A stretch of 46,344 bases of DNA from an uncultured bacterium (GTDB lineage Bacteria; Hydrothermota; Tepidihabitantia; Tepidihabitantales; Tepidihabitantaceae), in assembly GCA_964485845.1 (NCBI GenBank), contig CAZAKP010000002.1, positions 1 to 46,344 on the forward strand. Reading direction: 5' to 3'. The position numbers were made by a program, and so were the translations under genes. Shown piece by piece: positions 1-32,731 of this stretch. The number at the start of each line of letters is the position of its first letter. Position 1 is the stretch's first letter. A model generated the notes under the pieces. That model made no database searches and was not told the DNA's origin. It saw only the letters and a list, made by a program, of their open reading frames with translations.

Positions 1-78
1 CTATTCAGACGCACCAGCCGTCAGAAGGATGTCAAGCCTTTTTCAACAGCCCCAGCGTCCCTATTTAAGGAGGCAAAC

Positions 79-2658
79 GTGAAGAGCAGTAAGCGAGTGA
101 TGAGAAAGAAAGCGCCGGCGAAGTCGTTCCCGATTGTCGGTATCGGCGCGTCGGCGGGCGGGCTGGAAGCGGTGACCGAGCTTTTGCAGGCGCTGCCCGC
201 CAACCCGGGTATGGCGTTTGTGGTCATGCAGCACCTCGACCCGACGCACGAGAGCGCGCTGCCGACGTTGCTCGGCCGCGTGACGAACCTGCCGGTCGCG
301 GAGGCCAAGCAGAACCTGCGCGTCGAAGTCAACCGCGTCTACGTGATTCCGCCCAACAAGGCCATCCGGGTGGCCGGACGCCGGCTGAAGGTGACGCCGC
401 GCCGGACCGAGAAGGACGTGCGGATGCCGATCGACGAGTTTCTCGTGTCGCTCGCCACCGAGGAGGGAAGCAACGCCATCGGCGTAGTTCTCTCGGGCAA
501 CGGCTCGGACGGCACGGCCGGGCTCATGGCGATCAAGACCGCCGGGGGCATCACGTTCGCGCAGGACGAGAAGACGGCCAAGTACACCTCCATGCCGGCG
601 AGCGCGGTCGCGGCCGGCTGCGTGGATTTCGTTCTGTCGCCCGCCAAGATCGCGAAGGAGATGGTCGCACTTGCCGGCCGCCCGGCGGGCTCGGAAGTGC
701 CCATCCTGCCGACCACGTCGAAGGCGCGCGGTGAGGAACGGGCTTTCGAGGAGATTGTCGCGGTGATCCGCCAGCGGCTCGGCGTGGACTTCACCTACTA
801 CAAGCGCCCGACGCTTGACCGGAGAATCCACCGGCGGATGGCGCTGCGGCGTTTCGACAAGCTGCACGAGTACTCCGACTACCTGCGCCGCCACCCGGCC
901 GAGGTACAGGAGTTGTTCAATGATATCCTCATCCACGTGACCGGCTTCTTCCGGGACAAAAGCGTTTTCACCACGCTGAAGAAGAAGATACTGCCGAGAC
1001 TGGTCAAGGGCCGCGGGCCGGAGGATGCAGTCCGCGTCTGGGTGCCGGGCTGTTCGAGCGGGGAAGAGGTCTATTCCATCACCATTGCGCTGGTGGAATT
1101 TCTCTCGGAAAAGGGGATGCACAACCCGATCCAGGTGTTCGGTACGGACATCAACCTGAAGGCGCTCGACCGCGCCCGGCAGGGCTTCTATCCGGCCGGC
1201 ATCGCCGCCGAGGTGTCGGCGGAACGGCTGCACCGTTTCTTCGCCAAATCCGACAGTGGCTACCGCATCAACAAGACCATCCGCGAGCTGTGCGTGTTCG
1301 CCCGCCAGAACGTGGCCGTGGACCCGCCGTTCTCCAACCTCGACCTGATCAGTTGCCGCAACGTGCTCATCTACCTGGGCGCGCCGCTGCAGCGCAAGGT
1401 GTTTCCGATATTCCACTACGCCCTCCGCCCGGGCGGCTACCTCTTGCTCGGCGCGTCGGAAACCACCGGCGCCGCAGTGGACCTGTTCGAGCTGGCGGAC
1501 AAGAAAGACAAGTTCTACGTGAAGCGGACGACGCTGGTGCGGCCGCCGATTGCGTTCGGGCGCGCCCTGCCCGAGGCGAAGGCCGAAACGCCGGGAGCGG
1601 AGGCGGCAACCGCTCCGGCCCAGCTCGTCCCATCCGCGGCCGAGGTCCAGAAGCAGGCCGACCGGCTGGTACTCACGCACTACAGCCCGATTGGCGTCGT
1701 GGTCAACCGGCAGATGGAGGTGCTCCAGTTCCGGGGCCGCACCGCGGCTTACCTGGAACACGCGCAGGGTGATGCGAGCCTCAACCTCCTGAAGCTGGCG
1801 CGCGAAGGACTGGACCTCGACCTGCGCACTGCGCTCAACAAGGCCATCAGGCAGAACGTCCGGGCCCGGCTGGAGAATGTCCGAGTTCGGCTCAACGGCG
1901 ACTACGGCTTCGTCAACGTCGAGGTGCTGCCCTTCACCGTGCCGCCGTCGCACGAACGTTTCTTCCTCGTCTCGTTCGAACCGGTACCGGAGGTCGAGAC
2001 TCCGGGGGGACGCAGGCCGCGCGGGCGCGGCGCGCGTGGGCCTTCCGAAGGAAAGGAGCTGACCAAGCTGCGTGAGGAGCTGGCGTCGACGCGCGAGTCG
2101 CTGCAGGCGATTATCGAGGAGCAGGAGGCGACCAACGAGGAACTGCGCTCGGCCAACGAAGAGATAACCTCCTCCAACGAAGAGCTGCAGTCGACCAACG
2201 AGGAGCTTGAGACCGCCAAGGAGGAACTGCAGTCTACTAACGAAGAGCTTTCGACGCTCAACGACGAGCTGGAGAGCCGCAACTCCGAACTGGAGAACGT
2301 CAACAACGACCTCCACAACCTCATGGCCAGCGTCAACATCCCGATTGTCATCGTCGGCAGCGACCTGCACATCCGGCGGTTCACCAACGTCGCCGAGAAG
2401 CTGCTCAACCTCATACCCGGCGACGTGGGCCGGCCGATCACCGACATCAAGATGCGCTTGGAGGTGCCGAAGCTCGACAAGCACATCCGCGAGGTAATTG
2501 ACACGCTCCAGACTAAAGACCTCGAAGTGCAGGACGAGAACAGCCACTGGTGGAGCGTGCGGGTTCGCCCCTACAAGACCACCGACCACAAGATCGACGG
2601 CGCGGTAATCGCGTTCGTGGACGTCGACCAACTGAAGAACCCGGTGACAGCGAAGTGA
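79..2658 (+). CDS. Two-component-system CheB/CheR fusion protein: CheB-type methylesterase, CheR-type SAM methyltransferase, heptad coiled coil and C-terminal PAS
   Basis: The N-terminus carries the CheB methylesterase signature (GIGASAGGLEA ... VLSGNGSDGT ... ITFAQDE). The middle region carries a CheR methyltransferase signature (GFFRD ... VWVPGCSSGEEVYS ... NVLIYL). Nine tandem 21-nt/7-aa repeats (xTNEELx) form a coiled coil at nt ~2125..2313, followed by a PAS fold. RBS AGGAGG lies 6 nt upstream of GTG 79; ATG 100 is an alternative start. Confidence 0.85.
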   Translation: MKSSKRVMRKKAPAKSFPIVGIGASAGGLEAVTELLQALPANPGMAFVVMQHLDPTHESALPTLLGRVTNLPVAEAKQNLRVEVNRVYVIPPNKAIRVAGRRLKVTPRRTEKDVRMPIDEFLVSLATEEGSNAIGVVLSGNGSDGTAGLMAIKTAGGITFAQDEKTAKYTSMPASAVAAGCVDFVLSPAKIAKEMVALAGRPAGSEVPILPTTSKARGEERAFEEIVAVIRQRLGVDFTYYKRPTLDRRIHRRMALRRFDKLHEYSDYLRRHPAEVQELFNDILIHVTGFFRDKSVFTTLKKKILPRLVKGRGPEDAVRVWVPGCSSGEEVYSITIALVEFLSEKGMHNPIQVFGTDINLKALDRARQGFYPAGIAAEVSAERLHRFFAKSDSGYRINKTIRELCVFARQNVAVDPPFSNLDLISCRNVLIYLGAPLQRKVFPIFHYALRPGGYLLLGASETTGAAVDLFELADKKDKFYVKRTTLVRPPIAFGRALPEAKAETPGAEAATAPAQLVPSAAEVQKQADRLVLTHYSPIGVVVNRQMEVLQFRGRTAAYLEHAQGDASLNLLKLAREGLDLDLRTALNKAIRQNVRARLENVRVRLNGDYGFVNVEVLPFTVPPSHERFFLVSFEPVPEVETPGGRRPRGRGARGPSEGKELTKLREELASTRESLQAIIEEQEATNEELRSANEEITSSNEELQSTNEELETAKEELQSTNEELSTLNDELESRNSELENVNNDLHNLMASVNIPIVIVGSDLHIRRFTNVAEKLLNLIPGDVGRPITDIKMRLEVPKLDKHIREVIDTLQTKDLEVQDENSHWWSVRVRPYKTTDHKIDGAVIAFVDVDQLKNPVTAK
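2125..2313 (+). repeat. In-frame 21-nt tandem repeats (about 9 units) encoding the xTNEELx heptad coiled coil of the CheB/CheR fusion
   Basis: Direct reading shows aacgaagagctgcagtcgacc / aacgaggagcttgagaccgcc / aaggaggaactgcagtctact and further units. The translation has periodic STNEELQ repeats. Confidence 0.8.
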
Positions 2659-2945
2659 AGCTCAGGCGCTCCGCCAAAACGGGGACTGTCCCTTCCGAAG
2701 TGGGGACAGATCCGCGCCGAGTCCGACGCAGGCGCTCCGCGGACCTGTCCCCGCTTCGCAAGACAGCCTCGCGTCGCTCCGTAGACGTGGAAATAGGGAC
2801 TGTCACTTCGCAGGGCCCTCGTGCGACTGGGGACACATCCGCGCCGCGTTCGTCGCGCCGCTCCGTGGACGTGTCCCCTCCGAAGACTGTCCCCATTTTG
2901 AGGCAGGGGAAGAAGAAGAAAATGGGTAGCGTCCCCATTTTACGG
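2659..2945. repeat. Intergenic block of nested GGGAC/GTCCC palindromes spanning the histidine-kinase start codon
   Basis: GGGGACTGTCCC lies at 2681-2692. Two ~50-nt hairpins of the form GGGGACAN-(tccgcgcc...ctccg.ggac)-NTGTCCCC lie at 2702-2751 and 2829-2878. GGAAATAGGGACTGTC lies at 2783-2798, GTCCCCATTTT at 2890-2900, and AAAATGGG tagc GTCCCCATTTT at 2918-2941 overlaps ATG 2922. Confidence 0.7.
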
Positions 2946-5084
2946 GAACTTCATGACCTGCGGGAGCAGCTTGCTGTCGAGCGGCTGGACTTCGAGTCGG
3001 CCAATGAGGCGGCGATCGAGGCCCTGCGCGAGCTGGAGCTTTCCCGCGAACGCTACGCGGACCTTTTCAATAATGCCCCGCTCGGCTATCTCCTGCTCGA
3101 CCGCAACGGTTTCATCCGCGAAGCCAACCGGACTGCCGCGCTGATGCTGGGTGAGCCTGCCGACCGGCTGTGTAACGTCCTGCTCGCGCACTTCGTCGCC
3201 AAAGAAGACAGGCGGAGCCTGCTAAGGCACCTGAACCGGTGCCGGCACAGCGCGAGTGACGAAGAGGTAACCACCGGGCTGAGGATGGCCGGCGCCGAAG
3301 GCCGGCTGCTTGACGTCGCGCTCACCAGCCGGACGCAGCCGGGAATGCCCAAATCGCTCGCGCAGGTCCGCTATCGCACCGCGATGGTGGACGTTACCGA
3401 CCGCAAACGGGCCGAGGCCCAGGTGCGGGCGGACGTCGCCGCCCTGACCCGAATGCACGATTTGAGCGTTGCTTCCCTGGGCGGGCTGGGCCTCGGGCCG
3501 CTGCTTCAGGAGGTCATGAACACGGCGGTGGCTATCGTCGGTGCAGGTCGGGGCACTCTGCAGTTGCTGGAGGGCGGCTCCCTGAGTATGGCTGCCCAAT
3601 CCGGGCACGAGCAGCCGTTTCTGGAGTTCTTCGGCCGGGCCGAGAACCGGGCCTCGTCGTGCGGCGAGGCGCTCAGGTGCCGGGAACGGGTGATGGTTCC
3701 CGATGTCGAGGCGAGCCCGCTATTCGCCGGCACGCCCTCGCTCGACGTTCTGCGCAAGGCCGGAGTCCGGGCCGTGCAATCAACTCCGATGGTCAGCGCC
3801 TCGGGCAATCTGCTGGGCATCCTGACCACTCACTGGAGCGAACCCCATTCGGTGAACGAGCACGACCTCTGGCGACTTGACCTTTTGGCGCGGCAGGCTG
3901 CCGACCTGATTGAATCCGGCCGCGCGAGACAGGCCCTGCGCGAAAGCGAGGAGAAGTACCGCAGCGTGGTCGAACGGGCGAGTGACGGAATCTGCGTCAT
4001 CCAGCAGGGCCGGCTCAGCTATGTGAACCAGCGGCTGGCAGAGATGGTGCAGCACAAGCCGGAAGAACTGGTCGGCCGGGAGTTCATCGATTACGTATGC
4101 CCGGATGACCGGACGATGGCTCTCGACCAGTACCGCCGCCGCCTCGCCGGCGAGACGTCTTCGTACGAAGTCAGGCTCATCGGCCACGACGGCGACGAGG
4201 TGCTGGTCGAGGTCAACGCCGCGCTGGCGATGTATGGCGGCGAACAGGCCGACATCGTCCTCGTCCGTGACGTCACCGAGCGCCGGCAGGCTGAGCGCAG
4301 ACTGCTGGAGACGCTGGCCGAGCTGAAGCGTTCCAACGAGGAGCTGGAGCAGTTTGCCTACGTCGCGTCGCACGACCTGCAGGAGCCGCTGCGGATGGTT
4401 TCGAACTACGTCGACCTGCTGCGGCGGCGTTACCGGACGAAGCTGGATGGACAGGCCGACAAGTACATCGACTACGCGGCGGGCGGAGCTAAGCGGATGC
4501 AGGCGCTCATCACCGACCTCTTGACGTTCTCCCGAGCCGGCCGGCGCGAGTGGCAGACGACCCGGGTCGACCTCAATCAAGTATTCCAGCGGGCGCTGTG
4601 CAACCTGGAGGCGGCCATCGGTGAAGCCGGCGCGGAAGTCACGTCGAGCACGTTGCCAACCGTCGCCGGCGACGAGCTGGCCCTCGTGCAGTTGTTCCAG
4701 AACCTGATTGACAACGGCATCAAGTTCCGCAGCAAGGAACCGCCGGCGGTGAGAGTGGAAGCGGAGACGCGGGGACGCGGGGACGCGGAGACACGGGGAC
4801 ACGGAGACGCGGAGACGGGGTTCGTCACTATCCGCGTTTCCGACAACGGCATCGGGATCGAGCCGCGCCACGCCGAACGGGTCTTCCGGCTGTTCCAGCG
4901 CCTGCACACGGCCGAGGAGTATCCCGGCACGGGTATCGGCCTCGCGGTGTGTAAGCGCATCGTCGAGCGCCACGGCGGACGCATCTGGGTGGAACCCGGG
5001 TCGGGTAAGGGCACAACTTTCTCATTTACGCTCCCCGGAGGCGAACTGAATGCGGGTCAGCATCCGCCCTCCCGCGAATCATGA
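2922..5084 (+). CDS. Multi-sensor histidine kinase (PAS-GAF-PAS-HisKA-HATPase_c)
   Basis: The phosphoacceptor H-box reads FAYVASHDLQEPLRMV. The N, G1 and G2 boxes read [18 protein letters not shown] and [18 protein letters not shown]. The ORF track extends to 2550, but the upstream in-frame region is low-complexity and Arg-rich, so ATG 2922 (MGSVPIL) was chosen. The 8-nt tandem repeat at 4761-4817 encodes ETRGRGDAETRGHGDAETG. Confidence 0.8.
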   Translation: MGSVPILRELHDLREQLAVERLDFESANEAAIEALRELELSRERYADLFNNAPLGYLLLDRNGFIREANRTAALMLGEPADRLCNVLLAHFVAKEDRRSLLRHLNRCRHSASDEEVTTGLRMAGAEGRLLDVALTSRTQPGMPKSLAQVRYRTAMVDVTDRKRAEAQVRADVAALTRMHDLSVASLGGLGLGPLLQEVMNTAVAIVGAGRGTLQLLEGGSLSMAAQSGHEQPFLEFFGRAENRASSCGEALRCRERVMVPDVEASPLFAGTPSLDVLRKAGVRAVQSTPMVSASGNLLGILTTHWSEPHSVNEHDLWRLDLLARQAADLIESGRARQALRESEEKYRSVVERASDGICVIQQGRLSYVNQRLAEMVQHKPEELVGREFIDYVCPDDRTMALDQYRRRLAGETSSYEVRLIGHDGDEVLVEVNAALAMYGGEQADIVLVRDVTERRQAERRLLETLAELKRSNEELEQFAYVASHDLQEPLRMVSNYVDLLRRRYRTKLDGQADKYIDYAAGGAKRMQALITDLLTFSRAGRREWQTTRVDLNQVFQRALCNLEAAIGEAGAEVTSSTLPTVAGDELALVQLFQNLIDNGIKFRSKEPPAVRVEAETRGRGDAETRGHGDAETGFVTIRVSDNGIGIEPRHAERVFRLFQRLHTAEEYPGTGIGLAVCKRIVERHGGRIWVEPGSGKGTTFSFTLPGGELNAGQHPPSRES
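4761..4817 (+). repeat. 8-nt coding microsatellite (G[GA]GACRCG)x7 inside the histidine-kinase ATP-binding domain
   Basis: Direct reading gives gagacgcg gggacgcg gggacgcg gagacacg gggacacg gagacgcg gagacggg. The unit length is not a multiple of 3. The paralogous gene carries only 2 units (8771-8789) and loses frame. Confidence 0.75.
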
Positions 5085-5150
5085 GTAGACAGTGTCGCGT
5101 GCATCCCACCAGTCGTATTCGGGATTACCGCCATTTAAGGAGGTCTTGAG

Positions 5151-6503
5151 ATGAAAAACAGCAGCACGCCGCCCCGGACAGCCGGCGGGCGGAACCGACT
5201 CGATGCGCACTTTGCCCCGGGCGAGGCGGTGGACCGAATCAATCTCCTTGCGTCGATTGTGGAGTCATCGGACGATGCCATCATCACCAAAACGTCGAAG
5301 GGCGTCATAACGTCGTGGAACAACGGCGCCGAGAGGATTTACGGTTTTACGGCCGACGAAGTAGTGGGTCGTCCCATCTCGATTCTGCTTCCGCCCGGCC
5401 AGGTTGACGACGTTCCGGCCATCCTCGAGCGGATTACGCGCGGGGAGAGCATCCACCACTACGAGACCCGGCGCCGGCGCAAGGATGATTCGCTGCTCGA
5501 CGTGTCGGTGAGCATATCGCCGGTCAAGGACCGCACCGGCCGCATCGTCGGTGCCTCGACCATCGCCCGCGATATCTCGGCCGAGGTCGCCGCCCGCCGC
5601 CAGTCCGAGGAGAAGCTCGCGGCCGCCTCGCAGTACGCGCGCAGCCTGGTTGAGTCGTCGCTCGACCCGCTCGTGACCATCTCGGCCGACGGCAAGATTA
5701 CCGACGTGAACGAAGCTACCGTCAAGGTCACCGGCGTGCCGCGCGAGCAGCTTATCGGGACCGACTTCTCCAACTATTTCACCGAGCCGGACAAGGCCCG
5801 GGAAGGCTACCAGCAGGTGTTCGCCGAGGGCTTCGTGACCGACTACCCGCTGACCATCCGCCACGGCGACGGCCGGCTGACCGACGTGCTCTACAACGCC
5901 AGCGTCTATCGCGATAACCGGGGCAACGTCACCGGCGTGTTTGCCGCCGCGCGGGACGTAACGCTTCAGAAGCAGAGCTCGCTCTACGCCCGCAGCCTCA
6001 TCGAATCGTCGCTCGACCCGTTCGTGACGATCTCGGCCGACGGCAAGATTACCGACGTCAACGAGGCCACCGTCGCGGTAACCGGCGTCCCGCGCGAACA
6101 GCTCATCGGGACCGACTTCTCCAACTACTTCACCGAGCCGGATAAGGCCCGGCAGGGTTACCAGCAGGTGTTCGCCAAAGGCTACGTCACCGACTACCCG
6201 CTGACTATCCGCCACCGCGACGGCCGGCTGACCAGCGTGCTCTACAACGCGAGCGTTTTCCGCGATACGCGCGGCAATATCATGGGCGTCTTTGCCGCCG
6301 CCCGCGACGTCACGGCCACGAAGCGGGCCGAGGCGGAGCTGGCCGAACAGCGCCGGCGGGAACAGGAGCGGCTGGCCGAGCTCGAGAAGTTCCAGAAGCT
6401 CACCGTGGGCCGCGAACTGCGGATGGTCGAGCTCAAGAAGGAGATCGAGGAATTGAAGCGGGCGGCGGGCAGTCGTGCCGCCGGTGCGCAGGGAGCAGAC
6501 TGA
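5151..6503 (+). CDS. Triple-PAS sensor protein with no recognisable output domain and a C-terminal coiled coil (ELRMVELKKEIEELK)
   Basis: There are three PAS/PAC folds. The second and third are a ~345-nt tandem duplication (5638-5982 versus 5983-6327, ~90% identical at the aa level). RBS AAGGAGG precedes ATG 5151. The C-terminus overlaps the next ORF by 29 nt in another frame. Confidence 0.75.
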   Translation: MKNSSTPPRTAGGRNRLDAHFAPGEAVDRINLLASIVESSDDAIITKTSKGVITSWNNGAERIYGFTADEVVGRPISILLPPGQVDDVPAILERITRGESIHHYETRRRRKDDSLLDVSVSISPVKDRTGRIVGASTIARDISAEVAARRQSEEKLAAASQYARSLVESSLDPLVTISADGKITDVNEATVKVTGVPREQLIGTDFSNYFTEPDKAREGYQQVFAEGFVTDYPLTIRHGDGRLTDVLYNASVYRDNRGNVTGVFAAARDVTLQKQSSLYARSLIESSLDPFVTISADGKITDVNEATVAVTGVPREQLIGTDFSNYFTEPDKARQGYQQVFAKGYVTDYPLTIRHRDGRLTSVLYNASVFRDTRGNIMGVFAAARDVTATKRAEAELAEQRRREQERLAELEKFQKLTVGRELRMVELKKEIEELKRAAGSRAAGAQGAD

Positions 6504-7458
6504 CTTGACGACAGACCAGCCGGCCACCCGAGAGCTCGAGACCGGTGAGCGGCTGCTGGAACTGGAGCAGGCCTATCGGGCCACCCTCAACGTCCTTGAG
6601 GACTTCGACGCCGAGCGCGGCCGGCTCGCGCAGACCCAGCAGGCCCTGATAAACATCCTCGATGACTTTGACGCGGAAAGGGCCCGGCTCAGCCAGACCC
6701 AGCGCGCGCTGATGAACATCCTCGAGGACGTTGAAGCGGAACGGGTCGAGGTGGAGCGGGCCAAAGGCCTGCTGGAAGCGGCAAACCGGGAGCTGGAGGC
6801 GTTCTCCTATTCGGTTTCACACGACCTGAAAGCCCCGCTGCGGGCCATCGGCGGATTCTCCCGGGCGGTGGTCGAGGACTACGCCCCGCGACTGGACGAT
6901 GAGGGGAAGAAGTACCTGGGTCTTATCGCGAGCAGCGCCGACCACATGGGCCGGCTCATCGACGACCTTCTGGCCTTTTCGCGGCTCGGCCGTCAGGAGA
7001 TGGTCAGGACCGACGTGGACCTCGGGGCGATGGCCGAGGCAGTCTTCGACGAGCTCGCGGCCACGGTGCCCGAACGTGCGCTCCGGCTTGAGGTGGGACC
7101 GGTGCCGCACCTTGAGGGCGACAGCGGGATGTTCCGGCAGGTGCTCGTCAATCTGCTGGCAAACGCGATAAAGTTCACGCGGGCGCGCAAAGCGGCCCGG
7201 GTCGAATTCGGCTGGGCGCCGGCATCCTCGGCCTGGTACGTGAAAGATAACGGTGTCGGGTTCGACGTGCGCTACGTCGACAAGCTCTTCGGGGTGTTCC
7301 AGCGGCTGCACTCTTCAAGCGAGTACGAAGGTACCGGCGTGGGCCTGGCGCTGGTGCAGCGAATTGTCGCGCGGCACGGCGGCAGGGTCTGGGCCGAGTC
7401 CGAGCTCGACCGCGGCGCGACTTTTTACTTCAGCCTGCCGAGAGGAGGACGGAAGTGA
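6475..7458 (+). CDS. Histidine-kinase core (HisKA + HATPase_c) preceded by LNxLEDxDAER coiled-coil repeats; no N-terminal sensor domain of its own
   Basis: The H-box reads FSYSVSHDLKAPLRAI and the ATP-lid reads GTGVGLALVQRIVARHGGRVWAES. The GTG start has no obvious RBS. It may be the C-terminal half of the preceding PAS ORF, separated by a frameshift. Confidence 0.65.
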   Translation: MPPVRREQTDLTTDQPATRELETGERLLELEQAYRATLNVLEDFDAERGRLAQTQQALINILDDFDAERARLSQTQRALMNILEDVEAERVEVERAKGLLEAANRELEAFSYSVSHDLKAPLRAIGGFSRAVVEDYAPRLDDEGKKYLGLIASSADHMGRLIDDLLAFSRLGRQEMVRTDVDLGAMAEAVFDELAATVPERALRLEVGPVPHLEGDSGMFRQVLVNLLANAIKFTRARKAARVEFGWAPASSAWYVKDNGVGFDVRYVDKLFGVFQRLHSSSEYEGTGVGLALVQRIVARHGGRVWAESELDRGATFYFSLPRGGRK

Positions 7459-7913
7459 ACGGCCGGCCGGGTCTTGAGATCGTCGTCGTCGAGGATGACC
7501 CCAGCGATGTGCTGCTGCTGATGCGCGAGTTCCGCAAGCACAACGTCGCAAACAACGTGGTGCTGCTTGAGGACGGCGCCCGCGCGCTCGACTACCTCCT
7601 GCCGGAAGGAGCGCGGCCGATTCCGAGCCCCTCCCGGGTCGTCATCCTGGACTTGAAGCTGCCCAAGGTCAATGGCGTTGAGGTCCTGCGCCGCATGAAG
7701 ACCGACGAGCGGACCCGCGACGTACCGGTGGTGGTACTGACGTCGTCGCAGGAGGAGCGCGACGTCAGGGACGCGCGCGAGGCCGGCGCCGACGGTTACC
7801 TGGTCAAGCCGCTCAAGTTTGATGTCTTTGCCCGGTCCATTCCCAATCCGCACCGGGGCTGGCTGCTCGCGAATGGTGTCGCCCTTGGCGGCGAGGTGAA
7901 GGACACGGTATGA
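7455..7913 (+). CDS. Single-domain response regulator (CheY-like receiver)
   Basis: The N-terminus reads VVVEDDPSDVLLL. The likely phospho-Asp context is VVILDLKLPKVNG, and LTSS ... GADGYLVKP follows. RBS AGAGGAGGA precedes GTG 7455. The start overlaps the stop of the upstream histidine kinase. Confidence 0.8.
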   Translation: MNGRPGLEIVVVEDDPSDVLLLMREFRKHNVANNVVLLEDGARALDYLLPEGARPIPSPSRVVILDLKLPKVNGVEVLRRMKTDERTRDVPVVVLTSSQEERDVRDAREAGADGYLVKPLKFDVFARSIPNPHRGWLLANGVALGGEVKDTV

Positions 7914-9027
7914 ACCACCCGGTTCGGTTGCTTTTGATTGAGGATAACCCGGCGGATGCCGAGCTGGTAAAGCGCGAACTCCGCAAGTCCGGCATCGACG
8001 CCGACATGGAATGGGTTCAGAACCGGGACGGATTTGTCCGGGCGCTCGCGAACCCGCCCGATGTGGTACTCGCCGACTATTCCGTTCCCGGGATGGACGG
8101 GCTGGCGGCCATGCGACTGGCGCGCGAGCGGACGCCCGATGTCCCGGTCGTCATGGTCTCGGGCGCCATCGGCGAGGAATTCGCGATTGAGACGCTGAAG
8201 AGCGGGGCCACCGACTACGTCCTGAAACAGCGGCTGAGCCGGCTGGGCCCGGTGGTCAGGAGGGCGCTGCAGGACTATGCGGCGGCAGTTGAACGCCGAC
8301 AGGCCGAGGACAGGCTGCGGAAGACGATGGAGGAACTAAAGCGCTCGAACGAGGAGCTGGAGCAGTTCGCCTACGTCGCGTCGCACGACCTGCAGGAGCC
8401 GCTCCGAATGGTAAGCAACTATGTTGAGCTCCTGGGCCAGCGCTATCGGGGCCGGCTCGACGAGAAAGCCGACAAGTACATCGACTACGCCGCCGGCGGA
8501 GCGAAGCGAATGCAGGAGCTTATCATCGACCTGCTGACGTTTTCGCGGGTGGGCCGGCGCGAAATGAAGGCGGTGGCGGTGGACCTGGACCACGTGTTCC
8601 GTCTGGCGCTCGATAACCTTGAGGCCACCGTCGATGAAGCCGGTGCTGAAGTCACGTCGAGCACGCTGCCGACCGTCGTCGGGGACGAGCTGGCCCTCGT
8701 GCAGTTGTTCCAGAACCTGATTGACAACGGCATCAAGTTCCGCAGCAAAGAACCGCCGGCGGTGAGAGTGGAAGCGGAGACGCGGGGACGGGGTTCGTCA
8801 CTATCCGCGTTTCCGACAACGGCATCGGCATCGAGCCGCGCCACGCCGAACGGGTCTTTCGGGTGTTCCAGCGCCTGCATACGACCGAGGAGTATCCCGG
8901 TACGGGCATCGGTCTCGCGGTCTGTAAGCGCGTCGTCGAGCGCCACGGCGGGCGCATCTGGGTGGAGTCCGGGCCGGGCAAGGGCGCCACGTTTCTGTTC
9001 ACGCTGCCGGAGGCGGAGCACGCATGA
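7910..9027 (+). pseudogene. Receiver/histidine-kinase hybrid, frameshifted within the 8-nt repeat at ~8771-8789
   Basis: The N-terminal receiver reads LLLIEDNPADAEL ... VVLADYSVPGMDG, followed by the H-box FAYVASHDLQEPLRMV. After [11 protein letters not shown] the ORF-track frame (7910..9106) reads nonsense (SSLSAFPTT). The -1 frame instead encodes [22 protein letters not shown] ... [42 protein letters not shown] and stops at 9027. It has 2 repeat units against 7 in the paralog, a 40-nt difference. Confidence 0.6.
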
Positions 9028-9105
9028 GCGGGCGGCCCAGGTTACAGTGGCAGGCATCTACCGGTGCCCGAGCCCGGTCGAAAGAATAGAGAGTGAGGTG
9101 AATTG

Positions 9106-9570
9106 ATGGAAGACAGGCAGAAAGGTGCCCCGATTGAGATATTGCTGGTTGAGGACAATCCCGGCGACAGCGACCTGATCCTTGAGTTCCTCGAGAGCGC
9201 GCGGGTAACGAATCACGTCACCGTGGTCCGCGACGGCGAGGAGGCGATGGATTTCCTGCGCTGCCGGGGCCGCTTCGCCGGCGCCGTTCGCCCCGACCTG
9301 ATTCTGCTCGACCTGAACCTGCCGCGGAAGGACGGCCGCGAGGTGCTGGCCGACGTGAAGGCCGACCCATCGCTTGAGAGCATTCCCGTGGTCATCCTGA
9401 CGAGTTCGAGCGCCGAGACCGACATCGCCAAATCCTACAGCCTGAAAGCCAACTGCTACATCATCAAGCCGGTCGACCTCAGCCAATTCATGAACGTAGT
9501 CAAGTCGATAGAGGACTTCTGGCTTACGGTGGTCCGGCTGCCGACGCGGGGAGGAGCAAGCTGTGGCTGA
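9106..9570 (+). CDS. Single-domain response regulator (receiver)
   Basis: The N-terminus reads [13 protein letters not shown], with [17 protein letters not shown] and VVILTSS ... CYIIKP following. ATG 9106 is chosen; the ORF track begins at TTG 9103. Confidence 0.8.
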
Positions 9571-30950: not shown

Positions 30951-31853
30951 ATGAAGGTCTACCTAACCGTGAAGATTGATGCCAAGCCCTCGGCCGCGAA
31001 AGCGCATCGAGCGCCACAGGAAGTAGCGACCGCTCCCCACGCAATCTGGACCGGCACCGTCAGTTTCGGCTCCATCGCGTTTCCGGTAAGGCTGCGTCCG
31101 GCGGTGCGCGAACGGCGGGTTCAGTTCAACCTGCTCCATAAGTCCGACCTTGTCAGGCTGAAACGACAAATGGTCTGTTCGCTCGAAGGCGCGCCCGTTC
31201 CGCCCGAAGACCAGGCCCGTGGCTTCGAATTGGAGGGAGGCAGGTACATCCTGGTCGACCCGGCCGAATTGGAGAAGGCGGAGCCGGAAGCAAGCCGGGC
31301 GATAGCGGTACACGAGTTCGTGGGCGTTGCCGAAATCGACCCGGTGTATTTTGAACGGGGATACTATCTTGAGCCGGCGGAGGATGCAGGGAAAACGGGC
31401 GACAGTCCCCCGGCGCGCCTGCTCCGGACTCAGCGCGGGTCAGTCTCCGTTTTCCCGGAACTGGCGGCGGTGCTGGAAGAGGAGCGCCTCGCGGGCATCT
31501 GCACGTGGGTGATGCGCAAGCGGGCTTACGTCGGCGCGATTCTGTCGGCCGGCGGCGTGCTGCGGCTGAACGTCATTCGCCATCCGGGCGAGGTCATCAA
31601 GGTAGCAAGGCCGGCGGCCGGTTCGGCGCTGTCGGACCGCGAGCTTGCGGTCGGCAGCGAACTCATCAACCAGATGACCGGGAAATTCCAGCCGGAGAAG
31701 TTCACGAACAGCCACCAGCAACGGCTGCGGCAGCTCATCGAGCGCAAGGCGCACGGGCAGAAGATTCGCCTCGTCACGCCGAAGCGCCGCGCTGCCACCG
31801 AGCCGGATAAGCTGCTTTCCGTCCTCGAAGCCAGTCTGAGGAAAGTGGCATGA
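30951..31853 (+). CDS. ku: Ku protein (NHEJ DNA-end-binding), copy 1
   Basis: IWTGTVSFGSIAFPVRL ... ERGYYLEP ... is present. There is a ~30-aa N-terminal extension before the conserved IW.G.ISFG motif. Confidence 0.8.
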   Translation: MKVYLTVKIDAKPSAAKAHRAPQEVATAPHAIWTGTVSFGSIAFPVRLRPAVRERRVQFNLLHKSDLVRLKRQMVCSLEGAPVPPEDQARGFELEGGRYILVDPAELEKAEPEASRAIAVHEFVGVAEIDPVYFERGYYLEPAEDAGKTGDSPPARLLRTQRGSVSVFPELAAVLEEERLAGICTWVMRKRAYVGAILSAGGVLRLNVIRHPGEVIKVARPAAGSALSDRELAVGSELINQMTGKFQPEKFTNSHQQRLRQLIERKAHGQKIRLVTPKRRAATEPDKLLSVLEASLRKVA

Positions 31854-32731
31854 GGAAAGTAAAAAGGACGAAGGACAAAGGACGAAGTCCGGACCGGCGG
31901 ACGGCTCTACCGGCGAAGGTCACGGGCGCGTTTCGACCGACCAGCGACACGAGCCCGGAAGTCTGGCGCGGGACAATCAGCTTCAGTCTTGTCGCCATCC
32001 CGGTCCGGCTGGTTGAGGCAATATCGCCCGACCGGGTTTCCTTCCGGCTGCTGCATCGGAAAGACTACGCGCCGCTCGTGAGCCGGATGCTCTGCCCGAA
32101 CGAAGGGAAGATAGTTCCGAGCGAGGAGATTGTCCGGGGATTTGAGTATAAGCCGGGAAGCTACATCCCGATGACCGCGGCCGAGCTGGAGTCGGTCACC
32201 CCGGAGCGCAGCCGCACCATCGAGGTCACCGACTTCGTTCCCGCCGCGGATGTCGATACGGTCTACTTCGACTACCAGTATTACCTCCAGCCGATGAAGG
32301 GCGGAGAGAAGCCGTATCGCCTGCTGGTCGAGGTGCTGAAGCGCGCCGGGAAAGCCGGCGTCGCGAGCCTCGTGCTGGCCGAACGCGAATACCCGGCGCT
32401 CATCCGGAGCGTGAACGGGCTCCTGGCCGTGAATACGCTGCACTACCCGGACGAAATAGCACCCGTAACAGGGGTAAACACGGAGACGCGGGGACACGCA
32501 GACGCGGAGAAGGAGCGCATCAGGCGGGCGGTGCGGAAGATGGCTGCGAAGTTCGAACCCGATAAGTACGCGGACGAGCGGCGGGCGAAGATCGTGGCGC
32601 TCTTGAAGCGGAAGCTGGCGGGCGAATCGCTGGTGCAGGCGCCCGAGACCGAGGAGACACAAGGCCGGGCGGGTTCGGACCTTGAGGAGCTGCTCGAGGC
32701 CAGCATCGCCAAGGGCGGGAAGAAGGCGTGA
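31850..32731 (+). CDS. ku: Ku protein, copy 2 (tandem paralog) with a Lys/Arg-rich N-terminal extension
   Basis: VWRGTISFSLVAIPVRL ... DYQYYLQP is present. The N-terminus reads MRKVKRTKDKGRSPDRR. An 8-nt repeat (gagacgcg gggacacg cagacgcg) lies at ~32470-32500. The ATGA overlaps the copy 1 stop. Confidence 0.8.
   Translation: MRKVKRTKDKGRSPDRRTALPAKVTGAFRPTSDTSPEVWRGTISFSLVAIPVRLVEAISPDRVSFRLLHRKDYAPLVSRMLCPNEGKIVPSEEIVRGFEYKPGSYIPMTAAELESVTPERSRTIEVTDFVPAADVDTVYFDYQYYLQPMKGGEKPYRLLVEVLKRAGKAGVASLVLAEREYPALIRSVNGLLAVNTLHYPDEIAPVTGVNTETRGHADAEKERIRRAVRKMAAKFEPDKYADERRAKIVALLKRKLAGESLVQAPETEETQGRAGSDLEELLEASIAKGGKKA

What the first reader, a model, noticed from the sequence alone, without database searches (positions are those of the whole stretch)
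4757..8795. 8-nt coding microsatellite varies between paralogous histidine kinases and frameshifts the hybrid kinase
The 8-nt unit G(G/A)GAC(G/A)CG occurs 7 times in the first kinase (4761-4817, in frame, encoding ETRGRGDAETRGHGDAETG). It occurs only twice in the hybrid kinase (8771-8789). The 40-nt difference puts the hybrid kinase's ATP-lid (DNGIGI ... GTGIGLAV ... ) out of frame. An 8-nt unit is not divisible by 3, so copy-number change toggles the frame. This is either a genuine slipped-strand phase-variable or decaying sensor kinase, or a repeat-collapse assembly error. Three units of the same repeat also occur in frame inside the second Ku gene (~32470-32500).
Basis: seen in the sequence. 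Interest (0 to 1): 0.6.

Follow-up and report, generated by a model that had tools for sequence, protein, structure and literature searches.

The report
Frame-toggling 8-base repeat in sensor kinases
An unstable 8-base repeat sits in a surface loop of at least four related sensor kinases of one uncultivated bacterium; one kinase lost its catalytic domain for good when the repeat shrank by five units, and a second carries both working and broken repeat lengths in nature.

Summary
HK1 (2922-5084) carries 54 nt of GGRGACRC units at 4763-4816, in frame. HK2 (7910-) carries 14 nt at 8776-8789, so its ATP-binding domain (8790-9027) is out of frame. Ku2 carries 27 nt at 32482-32508.

An assembly collapse is excluded. 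The identical 398-aa frameshifted HK2 product occurs on 12 contigs from at least 9 samples, and the 14-nt tract never varies. One 40-nt (5-unit) deletion of an HK1-type tract reproduces HK2 exactly. The displaced domain still shows purifying selection (omega 0.14), so the frameshift is recent. It is fixed, and too little repeat remains for slippage to revert it.

The long tract in HK1 is the unstable one. Alleles of 54 nt (in frame), 110 nt and 118 nt (both out of frame) occur in populations whose flanking sequence is nearly identical.

Two more paralogous kinases just upstream of the window carry in-frame tracts of 54 and 102 nt in the same loop. The loop is a poorly ordered hairpin turn in the ATP-binding domain.

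The unit contains no T, so it is stop-free in all six frames. Similar arrays lie in frame in genes of many phyla.

Verdict: a slipped-strand coding microsatellite. Adaptive phase variation is plausible for HK1 but unproven.

The parts
2922..5084 (+). HK1: PAS-GAF-PAS-HisKA-HATPase_c sensor kinase, 720 aa, intact in this window
   Evidence: Gene call and Pfam domains on identical contigs. Translation. The exact 720-aa product is on 5 contigs.
4763..4816 (+). HK1 octamer tract, 54 nt (6.75 units of GGRGACRC). It has no T, is in frame, and encodes the loop ETRGRGDAETRGHGDAET between two beta strands of the ATP-binding domain. It is polymorphic: 54, 110 and 118 nt in other assemblies.
   Evidence: AF2 model: loop residues 163-179 lie between strands 155-162 and 180-187, in 10-residue blocks of mean pLDDT 63 and 55, with residues 171-177 below 50.
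7910..9106 (+). HK2 open reading frame as it stands: REC and HisKA, then 109 out-of-frame residues. The stop TGA at 9104-9106 overlaps the ATG of the next response-regulator gene (TGATG).
   Evidence: Only Response_reg and HisKA are called on this product in every assembly.
8776..8789 (+). HK2 tract remnant, 14 nt (GGAGACGC GGGGAC). It equals the HK1-type tract minus one 40-nt (5-unit) deletion. It is invariant in all assemblies.
8790..9027 (+). Displaced HATPase_c coding sequence of HK2 (G1 box DNGIGI, G2 box GTGIGLAV). It is open and shifted by -1 relative to the upstream frame. No start codon would allow it to be translated on its own.
   Evidence: omega is 0.14 in this frame against 0.92 in the frame actually read.
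4619..4879 (+). Patch of 93-100% identity between HK1 and HK2 (HK2 counterpart about 8632-8852) around the tract. The rest of the HisKA-HATPase region is 60-90% identical. This is the inferred gene-conversion patch.
   Evidence: Alignment A1. Sliding identity and lower dS next to the tract (0.31 against 0.92). Four-paralog comparison.
32482..32508 (+). Octamer tract in the linker of Ku2, 27 nt, in frame (ETRGHADAE). It is invariant in all 10 loci read, and the exact 293-aa protein is on 16 contigs. Orthologs carry related arrays or a palindromic element at the same place.
2676..2941 (+). Intergenic hairpin-rich repeats with a GGGGAC(A/T)G...C(A/T)GTCCCC core, upstream of HK1. They may be relatives of the octamer unit.
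   Evidence: The fold of 2672-2766 has z = -3.7.
31386..31455 (+). Imperfect palindrome lying in frame inside Ku1 (GGGAAAACGGGCGAC...GTCTCCGTTTTCCC), encoding KTGDSPPARLLRTQRGSVSVF.
   Evidence: Fold z = -2.07. Comparison with Ku2 and with the Ku1 ortholog in L152.

Best explanation
The feature is a hypermutable coding microsatellite with the 8-nt unit GGRGACRC. The unit has no T, so it is stop-free in all six frames. It lies in the turn of a beta hairpin of the ATP-binding (HATPase_c) domain in a subfamily of HisKA sensor kinases. At least four paralogs in this genome carry it at the same codon position. The array changes length in 8-nt steps by slipped-strand mispairing (the mechanism is inferred). 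The protein tolerates any loop length, but only tracts of 6+24n nt (54 or 102) keep the G1/G2 ATP-binding motifs in frame. In HK2, a single 5-unit (40-nt) contraction of an HK1-like 54-nt tract shifted the catalytic domain out of frame. The same event removed the repeat that could have slipped back. HK2 is therefore a fixed, recent, non-reverting truncation: either a young pseudogene or a kinase-dead REC-DHp protein. In HK1 the tract is still long (7-15 units) and unstable. Natural populations carry an in-frame 54-nt allele and out-of-frame 110- and 118-nt alleles, so kinase activity of HK1 is switched on or off by tract length. Whether that switching is selected for, or is only tolerated because several paralogs are redundant, is not shown.
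For: Shown:
- The tract lengths, and the frames for HK1-54, HK1-110, HK1-118, HK2, HK0 and HK-1, were read directly.
- HK2's 14-nt state and exact 398-aa product occur on 12 contigs from at least 9 samples.
- The 110-nt HK1 allele is identical in two samples (L005, L008). The 118-nt allele (L006) differs in the run of GGGGACGC/GGAGACGC units (net one unit longer). Both carry private unit variants absent from the paralogs, so they are not assembly chimeras.
- HK1 coding sequence outside the tract is 0/1841 nt different upstream and differs at 2 adjacent positions in 268 nt downstream between the 54- and 110-nt strains.
- One 40-nt deletion of the HK1 sequence reproduces HK2 exactly.
- For HK1 against HK2 downstream of the tract, omega is 0.14 in the HATPase frame, with 15 of 23 differences at third codon positions. 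It is 0.92 in the frame actually read. There are no stops in the HATPase frame.
- The tract maps to a loop between two strands in the AF2 model (blocks of mean pLDDT 63 and 55; residues 171-177 below 50). Solved homologs 8f71 and 9ys3 have extended sequence at this position. Most homologs have a 3-4 residue turn there, while P0001 and P0005 carry the same octamer units in the same loop.
- In-frame paralogs have 54- and 102-nt tracts, that is 6+24n.

Inferred:
- Slipped-strand mispairing as the mutational mechanism.
- Gene conversion between HK1 and HK2.
- Loss of kinase activity in the out-of-frame alleles.
Against: No reads were available, so heterogeneity within a sample, which is the hallmark of phase variation, is untested. 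The 110- and 118-nt alleles come from three sister samples and one haplotype background, so only two independent lineages were sampled. The 110-118-nt arrays are close to the k-mer sizes of assemblers, so a one-unit miscount in the 118 allele cannot be excluded. Part of the apparent purifying selection on HK2's displaced domain could reflect sequence copied in from HK1 by gene conversion. No expression or activity data exist.
Confidence: 0.75

Rival explanations
1. Adaptive contingency locus. The octamer tract is kept by selection as a reversible on/off switch of kinase activity, giving phase variation of signalling in HK1 and its paralogs. HK2 is a switch that got stuck.
For: The unit length is not divisible by 3. 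The tract is long. Three length alleles occupy all three frames in near-identical backgrounds. The array is retained in four paralogs and in diverged homologs. In-frame paralogs keep long, and therefore still mutable, tracts.
Against: No evidence of switching within a population. The tract lies near the 3' end, in a loop that tolerates insertions, which fits a tolerated passenger equally well. Similar arrays sit in housekeeping genes elsewhere, where switching would be lethal. The off alleles may simply be loss of a redundant paralog.
Confidence: 0.25
2. Assembly artefact. The HK2 tract was collapsed by the assembler, or is a chimera of the near-identical HK1 and HK2 flanks, and the real gene is in frame.
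For: The flanks of HK1 and HK2 are 98-100% identical over about 250 nt, a situation in which de Bruijn assemblers can err.
Against: The same 14-nt tract and 398-aa product appear on 12 contigs from at least 9 samples held under JGI and ENA accessions. The 54-nt HK1 tract on the same contigs is assembled intact. A 54-nt array is shorter than a read.
Confidence: 0.03
3. Recoding. HK2 is expressed full-length through a programmed -1 ribosomal frameshift or through transcriptional slippage at the tract.
For: The displaced domain is intact and looks selected (omega 0.14). The frameshift is conserved in all samples.
Against: There is no X XXY YYZ slippery heptamer at CGG GGA CGG GGT TCG. There is no homopolymer longer than 4. 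The region has no strong local structure (fold of the HK1 tract z = -1.4). The intact look is explained by recency and gene conversion.
Confidence: 0.03
4. Mobile or templated origin. The arrays are not microsatellites born in place. They are insertions, or decayed derivatives, of a dispersed GGGGAC-core palindromic element (REP/MITE-like) that settles in permissive protein loops. Length change then follows secondarily.
For: The same unit occurs in unrelated genes (the kinases and Ku2) and in intergenic DNA of this organism. Ku2 orthologs carry either octamer arrays or a GGGGACAGTCCCC palindrome at the same linker. P0005 carries both in the kinase loop. Ku1 holds an in-frame palindrome. In cyanobacteria the arrays sit inside units with terminal inverted repeats.
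Against: No target-site duplications or transposase were found. In Ku2 the array occupies the same length as the repeat-free linker of other orthologs, so no net insertion is visible. This concerns origin and is compatible with the best explanation for present behaviour.
Confidence: 0.35

Closest known systems
Contingency loci of Haemophilus, Neisseria and Campylobacter: phase variation mediated by simple sequence repeats in coding regions (named from my own knowledge: Moxon and colleagues)
   Same: A tandem repeat inside an ORF whose unit is not a multiple of 3. Copy-number change by slippage shifts the frame. Length alleles differ between near-identical strains.
   Different: Known units are mostly 1-7 nt. 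They sit near the 5' end of surface-structure or restriction-modification genes of host-adapted pathogens. Here the unit is 8 nt, the tract is in the C-terminal catalytic domain of cytoplasmic sensor kinases of a free-living uncultivated bacterium, and reversibility is untested.
Frameshift phase variation of sensor kinases: Bordetella bvgS poly-C tract and Campylobacter jejuni flgS/flgR tracts (from my own knowledge: Stibitz 1989; Hendrixson 2006-2008)
   Same: A two-component sensor kinase is switched off and on by indels in a repeat tract within its coding sequence.
   Different: Those tracts are homopolymers or short heteropolymers with demonstrated reversion. Here the repeat is an octamer array shared by several paralogs, and one paralog is locked off.
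STRR (short tandemly repeated repetitive) heptamers of heterocystous cyanobacteria, e.g. CCCCAGT = GGGGACT on the other strand (from my own knowledge: Mazel 1990)
   Same: A G-rich tandem unit with the same GGGGAC core. In the cyanobacterial loci fetched here the octamer arrays lie next to GGGGACT and ATGACAA heptamer arrays.
   Different: The unit here is 8 nt, not 7. It is found well outside cyanobacteria. STRR are described as mainly intergenic.
Rickettsia palindromic elements (RPE), selfish DNA inserted in frame in protein-coding genes (from my own knowledge: Ogata 2000)
   Same: Repeated DNA tolerated in frame in surface loops of otherwise conserved proteins, including housekeeping enzymes. 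The in-frame palindrome in Ku1 resembles this directly.
   Different: The octamer arrays are tandem rather than palindromic, and they vary in length in frame-breaking steps.

Membership tests
SSR contingency locus (phase-variable gene) | Tandem repeat tract inside the coding sequence or promoter | tested here: met
SSR contingency locus (phase-variable gene) | Unit length not divisible by 3, so copy-number change shifts the frame | tested here: met
   The unit is 8 nt. Tracts of 54 and 102 nt are in frame; 14, 110 and 118 nt are out of frame.
SSR contingency locus (phase-variable gene) | Tract-length polymorphism among otherwise near-identical strains | tested here: met
   Met for HK1: 54, 110 and 118 nt, with 0/1841 flanking differences upstream. 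Not met for HK2 or Ku2, which are invariant.
SSR contingency locus (phase-variable gene) | High-frequency, reversible on/off switching within a clonal population | not testable with these tools
   Needs raw reads or culture. Only consensus assemblies were available.
HisKA-type (class I) sensor histidine kinase | HisKA dimerisation/phosphoacceptor domain with the H box, and an HATPase_c domain with N, G1 and G2 boxes in one reading frame | tested here: met
   Met for HK1: Pfam domains on the product, PDB homolog 8f71 at E = 2.7e-51, motifs in the translation. Not met for HK2: HATPase_c is in another frame and absent from the product.
Pseudogene by fixed frameshift (HK2) | The frame-disrupting lesion is present in all sampled genomes | tested here: met
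   12 contigs from at least 9 samples.
Pseudogene by fixed frameshift (HK2) | Relaxed constraint or decay downstream of the lesion | tested here: not met
   omega is 0.14 in the displaced frame and it holds no stops. Either the lesion is very recent or the sequence is refreshed by gene conversion.
STRR repeats of cyanobacteria | Heptanucleotide unit, in cyanobacterial genomes | tested here: not met
   The unit is 8 nt. No source organism could be assigned to the window, and matching arrays occur in genomes of many non-cyanobacterial phyla. The unit shares only the GGGGAC core and co-occurs with such heptamers in cyanobacteria.
RPE-like in-frame palindromic elements | The element folds as a hairpin and is inserted in frame in a conserved protein | tested here: inconclusive
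   The octamer arrays do not fold (z = -1.4). The Ku1 element folds weakly (z = -2.07) and is in frame.

The most novel reading that the evidence does not exclude
GGRGACRC arrays may form a widespread class of T-free tandem repeats that are stop-free in all six frames. They settle in permissive loops of proteins in many bacterial phyla. Because 8 is not divisible by 3, they turn those loops into built-in frame toggles. In this organism a whole cluster of paralogous sensor kinases would then use them as contingency switches, which would extend SSR phase variation from host-adapted pathogens to signalling in free-living environmental bacteria.
Probability: 0.15. Interest if true: 0.75.

Novelty: new variant of a known kind. 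Interest (0 to 1): 0.5.

Why it matters
Frameshifting by simple sequence repeats is textbook for surface genes of pathogens, but it is hardly documented in uncultivated environmental bacteria or in the catalytic domain of sensor kinases. This locus shows the whole life cycle of such a repeat side by side in one gene cluster: in-frame long tracts (HK-1, HK0, HK1-54), out-of-frame long tracts in wild populations (HK1-110 and HK1-118), and a collapsed, locked-off remnant (HK2). There is a practical lesson for annotation as well. A truncated REC-HisKA protein and a variable-length kinase in metagenome bins can be real alleles rather than assembly errors. If the wider family of T-free octamer arrays proves to be a general coloniser of protein loops, it would be a new source of rapid, reversible gene inactivation across phyla.

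Tried and rejected
- Assembly collapse or chimera: rejected on the evidence from independent assemblies and the private unit variants.
- Programmed frameshift or transcriptional slippage: no slippery site, homopolymer or structure.
- Separate translation of the HK2 catalytic domain: no usable start codon (no ORF of 60 aa or more).
- Known RNA families: an Rfam scan of 17 array-bearing loci found only two tRNAs.
- Literature: searches for the repeat as DNA or peptide, and for octanucleotide repeats in cyanobacteria, found nothing relevant. Searches on STRR and on phase variation with histidine kinases returned only general background.
- General over-representation of the octamer word in the window: rejected, because single units occur at chance level.
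- Specificity of the unit: in viral contigs the real unit repeated three times gives 38 stretches, against 7, 15 and 11 for three composition-matched permuted units. That is an enrichment of only about 2.5-5 fold. A fourth control (43 stretches) was invalid because it overlaps a rotation of the real unit.
- The flank scan of metagenome contigs found only one relevant extra contig, L008.
- The first protein search missed the long paralogs: every one of the 120 listed hits was 459 aa or shorter.
- Taxonomy of the source could not be established. The nearest syntenic genome is NCBI GCA_040961665.1.
Full report
**1. The observation**

The window (63.8% G+C) holds a cluster of two-component genes. 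HK1 is called at 2922-5084 (720 aa; PAS, GAF, PAS, HisKA, HATPase_c). HK2 starts at 7910 and has REC and HisKA domains.

Between identical flanks (GAGAGTGGAAGC ... GGGGTTCGTCAC), HK1 has 54 nt of GGRGACRC units at 4763-4816 and HK2 has 14 nt at 8776-8789. TRF reports 7.1 copies of period 8 at 4761-4817, with a 24-nt super-period.

HK1 reads through in frame (ETRGRGDAETRGHGDAET, then [14 protein letters not shown]). HK2 reads REC and HisKA, then 109 nonsense residues to 9106. Its HATPase_c sequence is open in the -1 frame from 8790 to 9027.

Ku2 (31850-32731) has 27 nt of the same repeat at 32482-32508, in frame.

A two-unit pattern finds 9 hits, all at these three places, against 0.28 expected. 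Single units are not over-represented.

**2. HK2 is not an assembly error, and it is not variable**

Exact-protein look-ups found the same locus in many independent metagenome assemblies that are at least 99.4% identical to the window.

- The 398-aa frameshifted HK2 product is present, residue for residue, on 12 contigs from at least 9 sample accessions.
- Every locus read has the 14-nt tract.
- The 54-nt HK1 tract on the same contigs assembled intact.
- The Ku2 tract is likewise invariant in all 10 loci read, and the exact 293-aa Ku2 product is on 16 contigs.

**3. How HK2 broke**

Deleting 40 nt (five units; start anywhere in 4774-4778 because of microhomology) from the HK1 sequence gives the HK2 sequence exactly over the 60 nt compared. 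One slippage event therefore explains both the frameshift and the loss of the repeat.

Downstream of the tract, HK1 and HK2 differ at 23 of 215 positions, 15 of them at third codon positions of the HATPase frame.

| Region compared (HK1 vs HK2) | omega |
|---|---|
| Downstream, HATPase frame | 0.14 |
| Downstream, frame HK2 now reads | 0.92 |
| Upstream of the tract | 0.19 |

The catalytic domain of HK2 was therefore under purifying selection for nearly all of the time since the paralogs diverged, and the lesion is young.

About 250 nt around the tract is 93-100% identical between the two genes, against 60-90% elsewhere. Synonymous divergence is also lower next to the tract (0.31 against 0.92). 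I read this as a gene-conversion patch (inferred).

Nothing suggests rescue. There is no slippery heptamer, no homopolymer and no strong structure. No start codon would allow the catalytic domain to be made separately.

**4. The unstable tract is in HK1**

| Loci | Samples | HK1 tract | Frame |
|---|---|---|---|
| Window, L001, L002, L003 | ENA ERZ27245614, JGI 3300022556, JGI 3300025145 | 54 nt | in frame |
| L005, L008 | JGI 3300013137, 3300013138 | 110 nt (identical in both) | out of frame |
| L006 | JGI 3300013136 | 118 nt | out of frame, in the other shifted frame |

- The 110- and 118-nt alleles share private unit variants (GGGGAAGC, GGAGAGGC) that occur in no paralog. They differ from each other in the run of GGGGACGC/GGAGACGC units, a net difference of one unit. 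They are therefore not paralog chimeras, and they look like slippage products.
- Outside the tract, the 54- and 110-nt strains differ at 0 of 1841 nt of HK1 coding sequence upstream and at two adjacent positions in 268 nt downstream. The tract evolves far faster than its surroundings.
- The protein collection holds only these products: 720, 720 and 727 aa in one cluster.

**5. A paralog family with the array in one loop**

L008 extends 9 kb upstream of the window and carries two further kinases. Both have the array at the same position.

| Paralog | Location | Tract | Loop sequence |
|---|---|---|---|
| HK-1 | L008 76-3126 | 102 nt, in frame | ETRGHGDAETRRRGDAETRGRGDTETRGHGDAET |
| HK0 | L008 6236-9082 | 54 nt, in frame; one base different from HK1 | ETRGHGDAETRGHGDAET |

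In-frame tracts are 6+24n nt. Out-of-frame tracts are 14, 110 and 118 nt.

More distant homologs usually have a 3-4 residue turn at this position. P0001 (63-66% identical by the two measures) and P0005 carry recognisable octamer units in the same loop.

In an AlphaFold2 model (mean pLDDT 77.6), the tract residues 163-179 form a loop between strands 155-162 and 180-187. The 10-residue blocks covering them have mean pLDDT 63 and 55, and residues 171-177 are below 50. Solved homologs 8f71 and 9ys3 also have extended sequence there. The loop therefore tolerates insertions, and only the reading frame matters.

**6. Wider context**

The unit has no T. It follows from the genetic code that neither strand can encode a stop in any frame.

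These were mostly Cyanobacteria, Acidobacteriota, Planctomycetota and Chloroflexota, with some Binatia, Verrucomicrobia and Streptomyces.

- Arrays occur both between genes and inside genes.
- Many form inverted pairs.
- In cyanobacteria they sit beside GGGGACT/ATGACAA heptamer arrays and inside units with terminal inverted repeats.
- Several lie in frame inside real genes: an AMP-binding enzyme, a pyridine-nucleotide disulfide oxidoreductase, a class I tRNA synthetase, CobN, and a PAS-GAF kinase.

A control tempers this. In viral contigs the real unit gives 38 stretches against 7, 15 and 11 for permuted units, so it is enriched only a few fold.

In this lineage the arrays coexist with GGGGAC-core palindromes. 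These occur upstream of HK1, in frame in Ku1, and in the Ku2 linker of orthologs, where other orthologs have octamer arrays. This points to a common origin, but I could not establish one.

**7. Verdict**

The finding is real and is a slipped-strand coding microsatellite. HK2 is a fixed, recent frameshift that can no longer revert. HK1 carries working and broken alleles in nature. Adaptive phase variation is plausible but unproven.

The kind of mechanism is known from contingency loci and from bvgS and flgS (my own knowledge). The 8-nt T-free unit, its position in a catalytic-domain loop, its presence in four paralogs, and its link to a broadly distributed repeat family make it a new variant. 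I found no paper describing the repeat.

Noticed in passing
L008 76-3126 and 6236-9082 (same organism, upstream of the window): Two further paralogous sensor kinases carry the octamer array in the same ATP-domain loop, with in-frame tracts of 102 and 54 nt.
   Followed up: yes
L008 6050-6200, minus strand (intergenic, upstream of HK0): A higher-order 33-nt tandem repeat built of octamers (GGGGAAGGA GTRGACGC GGGGACGC GGGGACGC), about five copies, lies in the region upstream of a kinase gene. It is also present in L148.
   Followed up: partly
window 2676-2941: The intergenic region upstream of HK1 holds two copies, about 126 nt apart, of a hairpin element with a GGGGAC(A/T)G...C(A/T)GTCCCC core (fold z = -3.7). 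The same AAAACGGGGACTGT motif occurs inside the kinase-loop insert of homolog P0005 (L147).
   Followed up: partly
window 31386-31455 (inside Ku1, 30951-31853): An imperfect palindrome (GGGAAAACGGGCGAC...GTCTCCGTTTTCCC) lies in frame in Ku1. It adds about 20 residues (KTGDSPPARLLRTQRGSVSVF) relative to Ku2, reminiscent of Rickettsia palindromic elements.
   Followed up: partly
Ku2 orthologs P0121-P0148 (alignment A3); loci L152-L154: The linker between the Ku core and the C-terminal helix is a hot spot. Some orthologs have octamer-type peptides (DAETRGQGEAE, DAGIRGRGEAATRGDGDAE). Others have one to three copies of a GGGGACAGTCCCC palindrome, giving GTVP, GQSL or GDSP peptides. Others have a repeat-free linker of the same length as in the window.
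   Followed up: partly
window 544-548 against L008 about 9596: A G5 run inside the CheB/CheR fusion gene (100-2658) is G4 in the contig from sample 3300013138, which would frameshift that gene. It could be a real homopolymer variant or an assembly error.
   Followed up: no
window 9104-9108: The frameshifted HK2 ORF ends in TGATG, so its stop overlaps the start codon of the next response-regulator gene. The original stop lay 79 nt upstream (9025-9027). The frameshift may have created translational coupling.
   Followed up: no
window 4994-4995: The only two differences in HK1 downstream of the tract between the 54- and 110-nt strains (AC to GT, Pro to Ser) make HK1 identical to HK2 at that spot. 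This suggests a further exchange between the paralogs.
   Followed up: no
window 5627-6314, 6589-6745 and 2132-2323: Other tandem repeats in coding sequence: a 351-nt duplication (two PAS domains, 86% identical) in the 450-aa PAS protein, 2.5 copies of a 63-nt (21-aa) repeat at the N terminus of the third kinase, and 21/42-nt repeats in the CheB/CheR fusion.
   Followed up: no
L021, L038, L073, L080, L092, L106, L119 (cyanobacterial genomes): Octamer arrays are embedded in a MITE-like unit with terminal inverted repeats (ATCATGTCCGGTT...GACGC[array]GGAGAATTTTTAT...GGGACATGATAT). They often lie beside GGGGACT and ATGACAA heptamer arrays.
   Followed up: no
L009 about 1372-1520 on the plus strand (read on the minus strand): An unrelated metagenome contig, hit by chance with the flank pattern, carries an array of a related octamer, GTGRGAAC.
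   Followed up: no
window 1-53 against L008; ends of the contigs behind L001 and L002: Two independent contigs (those behind L001 and L002) end 73-86 nt upstream of the window start, and the first 53 nt of the window do not match L008. This probably marks an assembly break caused by the near-identical 3' ends of the kinase paralogs.
   Followed up: no
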